Below are positions 3,001 to 6,000 of a stretch of DNA of 9,779 nt, in pieces (the stretch's first letter is position 1; each line of letters begins with the position of its first letter). A program made the position numbers. The stretch comes from a virus. Lineage: Duplodnaviria; Heunggongvirae; Uroviricota; Caudoviricetes. Where the stretch lies: the IMG/VR virus record IMGVR_UViG_2740892231_000007; one strand, written 5' to 3'.

Positions 3001-6000
3001 AAAAGACCAAAACAAAACGCTTGAAGTGGATTCCACTTAGTGATTATACTGGAATCCAGTTGAGTGTTTATCACTCAATGCAAACGAGGCAGAAAAGGAT
3101 TGCCGTCCTTTCGCAGCCTCTGACCACCAACGATAGCAACAGTATCGAGGTAGCTATGAGAAATCATATCACACACCCGCAAGGGCGGGACCCGCACAAC
3201 CTGAATAAATACATCTGGCGTTTTATCGCCCTGAGCACGGCTAAGCCGCGCGTAATCCACATCGTGGCCACCAGCGAACAGGAAGCCCGTCGGCAATCAC
3301 CGGCTGGCTGCGTGATGGTATTCACTGCCCGTATTCGTCAGGGGGTGGACTTATGAGCCAGGAAATCACACTACAACAGGCAGCAGAACGCGCCCACCAA
3401 ATCGAAGTTATTTGCGCACTGGCAGAGGATTACCCTGGCATGATGACCGACAGCGAATCAGGGGCAATCATCGGCTTACTTAAACGCCTTAGCGGTGAGG
3501 TCTGCGTATTCCTGAGCGATGAGCAGGAAAGAAGAACGCTTATTTCTAACGAAAAAAAATGCGGAGGGGTACACCATGTGCAATAACATCCGTCCGGACG
3601 CAACCGCCGCCGCGCTCACTACGCTGATGCTCGCGCTTATTGATATTTCTGTTATTGCTGACAGGGCGCATAAGCACGCCACCAGTGAAACAGAATATGC
3701 AGGGGCTTTCGTTCCTCATTCGCTGGCGGTTATGCAACTTAGTGCTGATATGGCGCTGAATGAGGCCAAAGCCATCCTGATTGCTGATTGTGAAAATGGG
3801 GGGGGGGTTATGCGTGATGATCGTTTTAATTCCCTGAAACAGGAATTTTCCGGCGTTCCTGATGATGCGGCTGATGCGCTTTCGTCAATGCCAGAACTTA
3901 TTAGAGCGGCTTTTTTCTTACTTTCCACGAGAGAATATAAATCAACGGGGCTTGATGTACTGAATATCGCCGCCGATTATGCGGAATATGTGGCAGAGGC
4001 GCGTTACAGAAGAAAATTTCCTGAGGATGTAAGCCATGCGTGATATTTACCACGAAACAACAGATCGCGTATTTCTTGCACTTTCTCACAGTGAAAATAT
4101 GATGGAAATATTGCGCATATGGCTTGAAACACTTGGCGACAATGAACGCGACAAACAAAAATCAAGAATTGCCACGGCATTAATAACGCTTCTTGAGCCT
4201 GTAATAAATGAGTTGCAGGAAATAGAGACATTGCACGACAGATATAACGAACAGCACACCGGAGAATAAAAATAATGAAACTTAAATATTCTGGCTTAAC
4301 TGCCAGTGGCAACACTCACCCTAAATTTACGCGCGGTGATATTTACCGCGACCAGTACGGCGGTACGGTAATGATTAAGGGCGTGGCGGGACGGTGCGTA
4401 ACTTACCGCCGTGAAGGTTACGAATATGATTGCGTGATGCCTGTTTATCAGTTCCGGCGTGATTTTTCTCTGGTACAGACCGCGCCGCATAACGTGCCCA
4501 CCAGCAACGCCAGGGCACGGGCAAACATCCAGAAGCTGAAAACAATGATTAACGGATTCAGGGGTAAAAAATGAAACTGGCACCGAACGTAAAACGATTA
4601 CCGAAAGATAAATACACCGATGCGATTATTTTTGCGGGTATTGATGCTCATTCATTCGCAGAGCATTACATCATTGCACAGGCCAAAAAAGCAGGCGATC
4701 CAGTCCCTCCCGTTTATCTGGGGCGTTATCAGTTAAGCGAACTGGATAACCTCCAGATTGTTGATGATGGGCGATACAGGGCGACGGTGATACGCGCCGG
4801 AAATATTGAAGAGCCGCAGCTGTTAACCATCGCCACGAAACTGGCGAGCGCCGGAGTCCAGGAGGCGCGGCTACTTTCTGAAAATTTCGAATTGCTGGAG
4901 GAATGGAGCGACCAGCTTCCACGGCTTAGGGAGGCATGGGAACGCGGGGAAAGCCTGGTCATGAAAAAAATCCCCCAGCGAAAAACCAAGCTACCAATGA
5001 GCGTTGGATCTACCGGATACGACACACAGCTTGATTACGTGGTAAAGGGGATTATTCCGGCATCGTCGCTTTGCAGCATATACGGGGCGAGCGGTTCCTA
5101 TAAATCATTCCTTGCCGGATCGTGGGCGTGTCACGTTTCCACGGGCCGCCAGTGGGGAGGCCGCAGGGTGGCGCATGGCGCTGTTCTCTATGTGGTTGGT
5201 GAAGGCGGTATAGGCGTTCCGCGTCGTGTAAAAGCCTGGGAGGTTGTGCACGATGAGCAGGTGAAAAATCTGTATCTGGTAAACCGTCCCATCTTTCCGG
5301 CTGCCCCGCTTGATATTGATGAAATGGTTATCGCTGCCAGCCAGGTGGAGCGGGAAACGGGTAAACCTGTTCGCATGATTATTCTGGACACGCTGGCGCG
5401 TTGCTTTGGCGGCAATGATGAAAATGACTCCCGCGACATGGGGGGATTTATCCGTGGTTGTGACGAGCTTAAACGGCGCACAGGGGCTACGGTGCTGGTG
5501 GTTCACCATTCCGGCAAGGATGAAACAAAGGGGGCGCGTGGTTCCAGTGCATTTCGTGCATCACTGGACGCTGAATACCGGATACGCAGGGAGGACGCAG
5601 GAAGCGAAGCGCTGGTTATCTCATGCACCAAAATGAAGGACGCGGAGGAACTCAAAGAGGCTGCCTATGATTTGCGGGTGGTGGAGCTTTTTACCGACGC
5701 TGACGGGGAGTTAATCACGTCGCTGGTGGTGGTGGATAAGCCGCGTCCTCCCGTTGAACTGGAGCGCATCGAAGAGGCTGGCAACAAGACGGAGAATCAT
5801 GCTGCGCTATGGGGATGTATCCGGTCACGCACACAGCACGGCGACAAGTGCACGATCCCGCTGTTACGTGACGATATGAAAAAGCTGGGGTACGAAATGA
5901 AAAACTTCAGCCGCTGGCTACGCAAGCTGGAAAAAGACGGGGTTATTTATATCGACGGTGATGATGTAGGCCCTCTGTAAAAAGTGAGGCGCAAAAGTGA

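What the first reader, a model, noticed from the sequence alone, without database searches (positions are those of the whole stretch)
3798..3807. G10 tract inside an early-operon gene: potential phase-variable switch
Ten consecutive G residues encode N-G-G-G-V in the 155-aa unknown ORF. Both +1 and -1 slippage terminate the protein within 3-9 codons, at roughly half its length. Slippage would also uncouple the overlapping downstream genes (4036, 4275 and the helicase at 4571) from translational coupling.

Tracts of this length are prone to slipped-strand mispairing. In a satellite this could create ON/OFF subpopulations for whatever this gene does, possibly helper interference or replication control.
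Basis: seen in the sequence. Interest (0 to 1): 0.5.

Follow-up and report, generated by a model that had tools for sequence, protein, structure and literature searches.

The report
Hypervariable poly-G tract joining two satellite genes
The run of ten G's is real and changes length very easily between otherwise identical E. coli phage-satellite islands. It sits at the junction of two small genes and also serves as the ribosome-binding site of the second one, so slippage fuses or separates the two proteins rather than switching one gene off.

Summary
The G10 tract at 3798-3807 is confirmed; about 0.02 such runs are expected by chance.

**What the "155-aa ORF" is.** It is an in-frame fusion of two ancestral genes: A (3576 to the tract) and B (ATG at 3810, 77 aa). 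Distant relatives encode A and B as separate proteins.

**Tract length among relatives.**
- About 180 related E. coli PICI/cf-PICI loci carry G7-G11.
- Exact-protein look-ups find G4-G12 on one identical protein background.
- The window's own island clone (at least 99.9% identical) occurs with G8, G9 and G10.
- Loci with identical 800-nt flanks differ in tract length in 21% of pairs. After 1-2 substitutions the lengths are already random.

**Reading-frame classes.**
- 3k+1 gives the A-B fusion.
- 3k+2 gives A stopping in an ATGCGTGA overlap with B's start.
- 3k gives A with a 9-aa tail.

B keeps its ATG and the strongest predicted Shine-Dalgarno of the operon, which is the G-run itself. B is intact in 95% of loci in every class. 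The length distribution is smooth and shows no preference for any frame.

**Verdict.** The tract is a hypermutable slippage hotspot that causes a fusion/fission polymorphism. It is not shown to be an ON/OFF switch, and the proposed polar uncoupling of downstream genes is not supported.

The parts
3798..3807 (+). Uninterrupted G10 homopolymer. It encodes Gly-Gly-Gly at the A/B junction and forms the Shine-Dalgarno sequence for the ATG at 3810.
   Evidence: sequence. (chance expectation about 0.01-0.02). (anti-SD duplex -11.1 kcal/mol, the strongest in the operon and in the top 1% of window 22-mers). (length G7-G11 in homologous loci).
3576..3797 (+). Gene A module (74 codons up to the tract). 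It is a stand-alone gene of 72-87 aa in alleles with G8, G9 or G11.
   Evidence: RefSeq annotates it separately. (phrog_5146, an A-only family). (distant A-only proteins). (dN/dS 0.25).
3810..4043 (+). Gene B module (77 aa, MRDDRFNSLKQEF...), with its own ATG two bases after the tract. In this window it is read in frame with A.
   Evidence: (the 77-aa protein is called alone on at least 1000 contigs). (phrog_24341, a B-only family).. (intact in 146 of 153 loci). (dN/dS 0.22).
3576..4043 (+).
   Evidence: this exact protein is counted on 17 contigs by one look-up and read on 24 contigs by the other, in independent assemblies. No Pfam, NCBIfam, PADLOC or PDB match. phrog_2512 is the fused family.
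3810..3817 (+). ATGCGTGA motif. In 3k+2 alleles the TGA is A's stop codon and overlaps B's start.
   Evidence: the G8 allele reads GGT TAT GCG TGA. The same motif occurs in E. ruysiae after a different upstream gene.
4036..4043 (+). A second ATGCGTGA start/stop overlap, between B's stop and the start of gene C (4036-4269). It is the architectural twin of the A/B junction in the split state.
3353..3586 (+). Upstream operon gene U (77 aa, phrog_1478). It overlaps A's start by 11 nt and contains an A8 run at 3552-3559.
4036..5980 (+). Downstream operon genes: C (4036-4269), a DUF4222 protein (4275-4574) and a RepA/AAA_25 helicase (4571-5980).
   Evidence: No promoter-like or terminator-like site on the + strand between 3051 and 4700.

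Best explanation
The G-run lies at the boundary of two ancestral genes, A and B, in the early/replication operon of an E. coli capsid-forming PICI-type phage satellite. It carries two functions: it supplies the last Gly codons of A, and it is the Shine-Dalgarno sequence for B's ATG at 3810.

The G-run is a long homopolymer, so replication slippage adds or removes G's far faster than point substitutions accumulate. The locus therefore drifts among three reading-frame classes:
- 3k+1 (G7, G10): one A-Gly(n)-B fusion protein. This is the window's state.
- 3k+2 (G8, G11): A terminates in an ATGCGTGA stop/start overlap with B, a classic coupled gene pair.
- 3k (G9, G12): A gains a 9-aa tail and stops 29 nt inside B.

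In all three classes B keeps its own start codon and a strong SD. The junction falls in what is probably a flexible linker between two helical modules, so both modules are probably delivered whatever the tract length. The length is then bounded from below by SD function and from above by the instability of long runs.

Shown: the anatomy, the hypermutability, the intactness of both modules, purifying selection on both, and the absence of a frame preference. Inferred: that the fused and split forms are functionally near-equivalent, and that SD function sets the lower bound.
For: **Anatomy**
- The G8 allele is annotated as two overlapping genes.
- Distant homologues are A-only or B-only proteins without a Gly run.
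- PHROGs holds separate fused, A-only and B-only families.

**G-run as B's SD**
- The predicted anti-SD duplex is -11.1 kcal/mol for G7 and longer, falling to -9.1 at G5 and -5.4 at G4.
- In E. ruysiae a G9 run precedes the same B start behind an unrelated upstream gene.

**Hypermutability**
- Contig counts on one identical protein background are G4 1, G5 24, G6 70, G7 at least 1000, G8 912, G9 140, G10 41, G11 19, G12 4.
- On the O111 background the counts are G7 3, G8 134, G9 at least 1000, G10 237, G11 2. On the window's own background they are G7 60, G8 30, G9 437, G10 17.
- Two O111:NM genomes are identical over 3114 nt except for one G.
- The window's island clone occurs with G10 (L164, 100% identical over 8043 nt), G9 (L176, one mismatch plus the G) and G8 (L035).
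- 21% of pairs with identical 800-nt flanks differ in tract length. The figure is 78% after 1-2 substitutions, against a random expectation of 70%.

**No frame preference, no decay**
- IMG/VR and metagenome contigs give a smooth unimodal distribution: G7 33, G8 61, G9 30, G10 5, G11 2.
- B is intact in 34/37, 43/44 and 69/72 loci of the three frame classes.
- dN/dS is 0.25 for A and 0.22 for B.

**Linker**
- The AlphaFold model has pLDDT below 50 for residues 75-102, between two helical blocks (the model is low-confidence overall).
Against: - No expression data exist. Independent initiation at B and the equivalence of the A+B and A-B forms are inferences.
- The contig counts are confounded by clonal expansion, so the absence of a frame preference is not a formal test of neutrality. 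O157:H7 is uniformly G7 and O55:H7 uniformly G8 in the complete genomes I saw.
- An uninterrupted run of 7-11 G's is longer than an SD needs and is unusual for E. coli (own knowledge). Only about 8% of loci carry an interruption. Selection for mutability is therefore not excluded.
- The 40 nt after the tract are 96-100% identical across alleles that are otherwise 62-85% identical. This extra constraint is not explained.
- The structural model is weak (mean pLDDT 58.6).
Confidence: 0.6

Rival explanations
1. This is a genuine contingency (phase-variable) locus. The tract is maintained because stochastic switching between the A-B fusion and the separate A and B proteins, or between their different stoichiometries, creates satellite subpopulations with different replication, induction or helper-interference behaviour.
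For: - The tract is uninterrupted in about 92% of 143 independently sampled loci and keeps a length of 7-11 across alleles of 73-98% gene identity.
- All three frame classes are common in nature, as is seen for poly-G contingency genes in Campylobacter and Neisseria (own knowledge).
- Length changes are about three orders of magnitude faster than per-site substitution.
- The genes sit in the operon that is expressed on induction.
Against: - No phenotype is known, and A and B have no recognisable function.
- B keeps its own SD and ATG, so no phase is a clear OFF.
- Interrupted tracts exist and persist: GGGGGTGG, GGGGTGGG, GGGGAGGGGGGG and others, 12 of 143 loci.
- The tract is stable within large clones: Nissle 1917 derivatives all have G8, O157:H7 has G7 and O55:H7 has G8. 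That points to moderate rather than high switching rates.
- The whole 60-nt junction block is nearly invariant, so the lack of interruptions is not specific to the tract.
Confidence: 0.2
2. This is a recoding site. Ribosomal frameshifting on GGG GGG G, or RNA-polymerase slippage on the G-run, makes a fixed fraction of A-B fusion from split alleles (+1 in G8, -1 in G9). That would resemble the dnaX or phage tail-chaperone G/GT systems, and the DNA length would matter little.
For: - The frame arithmetic works: a +1 shift in G8 or a -1 shift in G9 reads through into B (sequence).
- Low-level frameshifting on a run of G's is documented for herpesvirus thymidine kinase (PMC5009743).
- Both fused and split products appear to be tolerated.
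Against: - A programmed site would keep one frame arrangement. Here all three occur freely, and fully fused alleles are abundant.
- I identified no stimulatory structure or pause element.
- Efficient transcriptional slippage in E. coli is described for A/T runs rather than G runs (own knowledge, not tested here).
Confidence: 0.1
3. The 155-aa protein is the functional unit, out-of-frame lengths are null alleles, and they are polar on the downstream replication genes.
For: - Fused alleles are common: G7 in O157:H7, whose island resembles the experimentally mobilisable cf-PICI EcCIEDL933.
- One fused variant has lost B's ATG (NGGVIRDD, P0034, 36 contigs), so there the fusion must carry any B function.
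Against: - On the window's own background and on the O111 background the commonest state is out of frame: G9 on 437 and at least 1000 contigs.
- In unbiased contig samples G8 is the mode.
- Distant relatives are split.
- B shows no excess decay in split alleles.
- B has the best SD of the operon.
Confidence: 0.07
4. The length differences are homopolymer miscalls by sequencing or assembly, not biology.
For: - Long-read and 454-type data miscall homopolymers.
- L035 differs from the window almost only at two homopolymers. One is an A6 in alpA that no other locus shows.
- PGAP flags one G9 allele as 'frameshifted'.
Against: - Each length is reproduced on tens to more than 1000 contigs, including short-read isolate assemblies and SPAdes metagenome contigs.
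- Lengths are consistent within lineages.
- The window's exact G10 protein is read on 24 contigs from independent assemblies.
Confidence: 0.03

Closest known systems
Homopolymeric poly-G/C tracts of contingency genes (Campylobacter jejuni, Neisseria, Haemophilus, Helicobacter), including Campylobacter tracts that fuse or split adjacent ORFs
   Same: Both are uninterrupted G runs of about 7-11 inside coding sequence. In both, the length is polymorphic among near-identical strains, each one-base step changes the reading frame, and some lengths give one fused ORF while others give two ORFs.
   Different: - The host is mismatch-repair-proficient E. coli and the element is a phage satellite, not a surface-structure or restriction-modification gene.
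- The tract doubles as the SD of the downstream ORF, so no length is a clear OFF.
- Neither a switching rate nor a phenotype has been measured.
- The comparison with Campylobacter rests on my own knowledge, not on a test here.
Translationally coupled overlapping gene pairs in phage and satellite operons (ATGA or ATGnnTGA junctions)
   Same: In G8 and G11 alleles A's TGA lies 5 nt into B, in the motif ATGCGTGA. The B/C junction at 4036-4043 is identical. All genes of this operon overlap or abut.
   Different: In the window itself (G10) the stop is out of frame and the two genes are read as one. The SD is an unstable homopolymer.
Programmed frameshift fusion products (dnaX tau/gamma, lambda gpG/gpGT, IS3 transposase)
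   Same: Two adjacent reading frames can be expressed either separately or as a fusion through a one-base shift at a slippery run.
   Different: Here the shift is fixed in the DNA and varies between strains. There is no conserved frame arrangement and no identified stimulatory element.
Capsid-forming PICIs of E. coli (prototype EcCIEDL933; bioRxiv 10.1101/2022.09.08.507074)
   Same: The window carries an integrase, AlpA, an Icd-like protein, small ORFs, DUF4222, a RepA-type helicase, PerC and a capsid gene, in the same order as annotated E. coli islands. The O157:H7 island with the homologous A-B gene carries capsid, decoration and small-terminase genes.
   Different: The window's capsid gene is a ClpP-protease/major-capsid fusion rather than the separate capsid and decoration genes of the O157 island. 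The paper does not discuss the A/B genes or the tract.

Membership tests
Simple-sequence-repeat phase-variable (contingency) locus | An uninterrupted repeat tract long enough for slipped-strand mispairing | tested here: met
   G10 at 3798-3807. 131 of 143 sampled homologous loci carry a pure G7-G11 run.
Simple-sequence-repeat phase-variable (contingency) locus | Tract length polymorphic among otherwise near-identical strains | tested here: met
Simple-sequence-repeat phase-variable (contingency) locus | Length change switches expression of the gene product ON and OFF, or alters promoter strength | tested here: not met
   The frame changes, but both modules remain encoded. A is complete upstream of the tract. 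B has its own ATG and strong SD, is intact in 95% of loci in all frame classes, and is annotated as a gene of its own. The consequence is fusion versus fission, not presence versus absence. Protein levels were not measured.
Simple-sequence-repeat phase-variable (contingency) locus | Reversible, high-frequency switching within a clonal culture | not testable with these tools
   This needs raw reads or fluctuation assays. The indirect evidence is mixed: there is variation within the O111 lineage and within the window's clone, but stability in Nissle, O157:H7 and O55:H7.
Simple-sequence-repeat phase-variable (contingency) locus | A selectable phenotype that differs between phases | not testable with these tools
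   A and B have no match in Pfam, NCBIfam, PADLOC or the PDB.
Translationally coupled overlapping gene pair | The stop codon of the upstream gene overlaps or abuts the start codon of the downstream gene, with an SD inside the upstream gene | tested here: not met
   Not met in the window's G10 allele, where A's frame runs through into B. Met in G8 and G11 homologues (ATGCGTGA) and at the neighbouring B/C junction at 4036-4043.
Programmed ribosomal frameshift or transcriptional slippage site | A conserved out-of-frame arrangement of the two ORFs across homologues | tested here: not met
   All three frame relations occur at high frequency.
Programmed ribosomal frameshift or transcriptional slippage site | A slippery sequence plus a stimulatory element, and a shifted protein product | tested here: inconclusive
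   G GGG GGG is formally an X XXY YYZ heptamer. I did not look for a stimulator beyond the promoter/terminator scan.
PICI / capsid-forming PICI phage satellite | Integrase, AlpA regulator, replication module and, for cf-PICIs, the island's own capsid genes in a compact island at a chromosomal att site | tested here: met
   Pfam hits for the integrase, AlpA (below cut-off), the AAA_25 helicase, PerC and the ClpP-protease/capsid fusion. The same island lies next to yejM/tRNA-Pro in isolates. The window ends inside the packaging module, so the island is not seen whole.
PICI / capsid-forming PICI phage satellite | Induction and high-frequency transfer by a helper phage | not testable with these tools
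   Shown experimentally only for EcCIEDL933, not for this island.

The most novel reading that the evidence does not exclude
The poly-G tract is a selected stochastic switch of a phage satellite. By toggling A and B between a single fused polypeptide and two separate proteins, or by changing their ratio, it would create subpopulations of islands that differ in replication control or in their relationship with helper phages. That would be the first simple-sequence contingency locus described in a PICI, and one of very few in E. coli.
Probability: 0.15. Interest if true: 0.65.

Novelty: new member of a known kind. Interest (0 to 1): 0.38.

Why it matters
**Annotation.** This junction is handled inconsistently in thousands of E. 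coli genomes: as one protein, as two proteins, or as a 'frameshifted' pseudogene. PHROGs carries three families for it. Recognising a hypervariable G-run at an A/B gene junction resolves that inconsistency.

**Biology.** It is a clean natural example of reversible gene fusion and fission driven by a homopolymer that also serves as a ribosome-binding site. It occurs in a family of satellites (cf-PICIs) that is under active experimental study.

**If the states differ in function.** It would add simple-sequence phase variation to the regulatory repertoire of phage satellites. If they do not differ, it is a useful fast-evolving marker for tracking island sub-lineages within STEC clones.

Tried and rejected
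- **Pattern scan of one-genome-per-species contigs**: no match.
A narrower alignment found only two loci, E. ruysiae and S. flexneri, so the element is essentially confined to Escherichia and Shigella in that collection.
- **Function of A and B:** no match in Pfam, NCBIfam or PADLOC and no PDB relative. PHROGs gives only 'unknown function' families.
- **AlphaFold on 46 fused homologues:** mean pLDDT 58.6 and pTM 0.41. I judged this too weak for a fold search and ran none. I use it only for the observation that the junction lies in a low-confidence linker.
- **Internal promoter or terminator near the tract:** none found on the + strand.
- **Literature:** searches for a poly-G or homopolymer feature in PICIs found nothing relevant. 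The cf-PICI and EcCIMP1 papers do not mention these genes or a frameshift.
- **A test I considered and rejected:** treating the absence of interruptions as evidence of selection for mutability. The whole junction block is almost invariant, and interrupted alleles do exist.
- **Not done:** exact counts of each tract length across all 5,426 complete E. coli genomes. I inferred lengths from alignment spans in an evenly spaced sample and verified them by sequence for 17 E. coli genome loci.
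Full report
**1. Observation**

Window positions 3798-3807 are ten consecutive G's (regex check). They are read as AAT GGG GGG GGG GTT, that is N-G-G-G-V, in the ORF that runs from the ATG at 3576 to the TGA at 4041-4043 (155 aa). An SD, GGAGGGG, lies 6 nt upstream of that ATG.

No other G or C run in the window exceeds 6. The expected number of G10 or longer runs is about 0.01-0.02.

**2. Context**

The window is an E. coli PICI-type phage satellite. On the + strand it carries:

| Feature | Coordinates |
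|---|---|
| Integrase | 1-1242 |
| AlpA-like HTH | 1739-1945 |
| Icd-like protein | about 3150-3356 |
| Gene U | 3353-3586 |
| The ORF in question | 3576-4043 |
| Gene C | 4036-4269 |
| DUF4222 protein | 4275-4574 |
| RepA/AAA_25 helicase | 4571-5980 |
| PerC | 6431-6703 |
| ClpP-protease/major-capsid fusion | 7321-9240 |

- No promoter-like or terminator-like site lies on the + strand between 3051 and 4700. The overlapping genes from U to the helicase therefore look like one operon.
- The same island sits beside yejM/tRNA-Pro in several isolates. One of them (GCA_000752815.1, L164) is 100% identical to the window over 8043 nt.
- Related islands occur in about a fifth to a third of complete E. 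coli genomes, depending on the query: 1003 of 5426 with a 130-nt query spanning the tract, and 1924 of 5426 with the whole window.
- The O157:H7 relative has the gene content of a capsid-forming PICI. The prototype, EcCIEDL933, has been shown to be induced and transferred by helper phages.

**3. The "155-aa gene" is two genes fused**

- In E. coli GN02050 the homologous stretch has G8. RefSeq annotates two overlapping genes there: A, ending ...NGGGYA*, and B, starting MRDDRF... The junction reads GGT T**ATG** CG**TGA**.
- A search of 1.84 billion representative proteins found only 49 relatives. The distant ones (37-54% identity) are almost all A-only (73-95 aa) or B-only (71-77 aa, aligned from their residue 1 or 2), and none has a glycine run at the junction.
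- PHROGs holds a fused family, an A-only family and a B-only family.
- The ancestral state is therefore two adjacent genes, and the window's G10 allele joins them in frame.
- The ATGCGTGA overlap at the A/B junction is the same as the one at the B/C junction (4036-4043).

**4. The G-run is B's ribosome-binding site**

- The predicted pairing of the 22 nt upstream of the ATG at 3810 with the 16S 3' end is -11.1 kcal/mol. That is the strongest in the operon and within the top 1% of window 22-mers.
- The value holds for G7 and longer but weakens to -9.1 at G5 and -5.4 at G4.
- Other genes of these operons use GGGGG or GGAGG SDs.
- In Escherichia ruysiae a G9 run followed by TAAAC precedes the same B start (ATGCGTGATGATCG...) behind an unrelated upstream gene. 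That upstream gene also ends in the ATGCGTGA overlap. The G-run therefore travels with B's initiation region.

**5. The tract is hypervariable**

- Seventeen E. coli genome loci spanning 73-98% gene identity all carry pure G runs of 7, 8, 9, 10 or 11 between identical flanks.
- Two O111:NM genomes are identical over 3114 nt except for G10 versus G9, and PGAP calls the G9 copy 'frameshifted'.
- Exact-sequence look-ups among about 15 billion proteins find every predicted product:

| Background | G4 | G5 | G6 | G7 | G8 | G9 | G10 | G11 | G12 |
|---|---|---|---|---|---|---|---|---|---|
| O157-type (contigs) | 1 | 24 | 70 | ≥1000 | 912 | 140 | 41 | 19 | 4 |
| O111 (contigs) | not looked up | not looked up | not looked up | 3 | 134 | ≥1000 | 237 | 2 | 0 |
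| Window's own (contigs) | not looked up | not looked up | not looked up | 60 | 30 | 437 | 17 | not looked up | not looked up |

- Pattern scans that allow any bases in the tract gave 90 IMG/VR and 53 metagenome contigs. Together they hold G7 33, G8 61, G9 30, G10 5 and G11 2. Another 12 are interrupted variants such as GGGGGTGG or GGGGAGGGGGGG.
- Within the window's own island clone, G10 is found in at least ten assemblies. G9 is found in L176, which is 99.97% identical with one mismatch plus the missing G. G8 is found in L035, which is 99.96% identical over 9.78 kb.
- Among 135 loci, pairs with identical 800-nt flanks differ in tract length in 21% of cases. Pairs with 1-2 substitutions differ in 78% of cases, which equals the random expectation of 70%. 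Tract length is therefore randomised at about 0.1-0.25% divergence, roughly a thousand times faster than a single site.
- For scale, an A8 run in the E. coli chromosome frameshifts at about 5e-8 per generation in wild type and about 8e-6 in mutS (PMC3306285). Longer G runs are expected to be less stable (own knowledge).
- Sequencing error cannot explain counts of this size in short-read assemblies, nor the consistency within lineages: O157:H7 has G7, O55:H7 has G8 in 7 of 7 genomes, and Nissle derivatives have G8. Individual calls may still be wrong. L035, for example, also has a unique A6 in alpA.

**6. Consequences of each length**

- 3k+1 (G4, G7, G10, G13) gives the A-B fusion of 153-156 aa.
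- 3k+2 (G5, G8, G11) gives A of 78-80 aa stopping in the ATGCGTGA overlap, plus B.
- 3k (G6, G9, G12) gives A with the tail LCVMIVLIP*, stopping 29 nt inside B, plus B.

Further evidence on the consequences:

- The B ORF is intact (73-79 aa) in 34/37, 43/44 and 69/72 loci of the three classes.
- dN/dS is 0.25 for A and 0.22 for B. Both are real, constrained coding sequences, and split alleles are not decaying.
- The length distributions are smooth and unimodal, with no three-base periodicity. For example G10 = 5 lies between G9 = 30 and G11 = 2. The mode is out of frame on two of the three backgrounds.
- The AlphaFold model is weak (pLDDT 58.6). It places the junction in a low-confidence stretch (residues 75-102) between two helical blocks.

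**7. Interpretation**

The best-supported reading is a mutational hotspot. The SD of gene B happens to be a long G run that also forms the 3' end of gene A. Slippage moves the locus among fused, coupled and extended configurations. All three appear to be tolerated because both modules are still made.

The ON/OFF consequence and the polar uncoupling of downstream genes are not supported.

A genuine adaptive switch remains possible at roughly 15-20%, because the tract is long, is usually uninterrupted and sits in the induction-time operon. Nothing here shows a phenotype, however, and interrupted alleles persist. Recoding (frameshifting or transcript slippage on the G run) is a minor possibility. 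The lack of a conserved frame arrangement argues against a programmed site.

**8. Novelty**

Homopolymer-driven frame variation, including the fusion and splitting of adjacent ORFs, is a well-known kind of feature in Campylobacter, Neisseria and Helicobacter (own knowledge). I found no description of it in PICIs or for these genes. I file it as a new member of a known kind, with modest interest. The main practical value is in resolving inconsistent annotation. The main open question is whether the fused and split states differ functionally.

Noticed in passing
window 3552-3559: An A8 run lies inside gene U, 17 nt upstream of A's ATG. Related islands have A8 (34 loci) or A7 (4 loci, of which L008 and L009 are O111:NM). 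With A7, U's frame runs into A. 224-aa triple fusions U-A-B exist in the protein collection (P0083, P0094, P0095). This is a second homopolymer-mediated fusion point in the same operon.
   Followed up: partly
window 1777-1783: An A7 run lies inside the alpA-like gene. The near-identical contig L035 has A6, which would frameshift alpA, the gene required for PICI induction. All 11 other loci with this sequence have A7, so L035 may carry homopolymer miscalls or a real inactivating mutation.
   Followed up: partly
window 3808-3847: The 40 nt after the tract (the start of B) are 96-100% identical in pairwise comparison across 19 loci, whereas the rest of A and B is only 44-93% identical. The junction looks like a conserved boundary between mosaic modules, or it carries an extra constraint. 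This is not explained.
   Followed up: partly
L018 2404-2520 (Escherichia ruysiae): A different upstream gene precedes B. A direct repeat, CTGCGTGATGAT, occurs both inside that gene and at B's start. The proteins P0185 and P0192 look like deletion fusions between the two copies.
   Followed up: no
P0034 (36 contigs), homologue of window 3807-3812: A fused G7 variant reads NGGVIRDD, so B's own ATG has been lost. In this 'locked' fusion B can only be made as part of A-B.
   Followed up: no
L019 2636-2645 (Shigella flexneri): B carries a one-base deletion in a GGGG run (aatcaacggggctt becomes aatcaacgggctt) that truncates it. This is one of the few decayed copies.
   Followed up: no
P0211 / P0221 (distant lineage): An A-only protein ending ...EADIKNAPGDNEYE* and a 144-aa protein with the identical A part continuing ...NAPGIMSMNNVQELK... 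suggest that an independent fusion/split polymorphism exists at the A/B junction of a distant relative.
   Followed up: no
window 1914-3356 (+) and 2096-2275, 2780-2959 (-): The mechanical 480-aa + strand ORF is almost certainly spurious. It spans two minus-strand 59-aa genes, of which the one at 2780-2959 lies where related islands have a YlcI/YnfO-family gene. Only its last 65 or so codons correspond to the annotated Icd-like protein.
   Followed up: partly
window 7321-9240: The capsid gene is a ClpP-like prohead protease/major capsid fusion. This packaging module differs from the separate capsid and decoration genes of the O157:H7 island, although both islands share the A-B operon. The early operon is therefore exchanged between satellites with different head modules.
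   Followed up: partly
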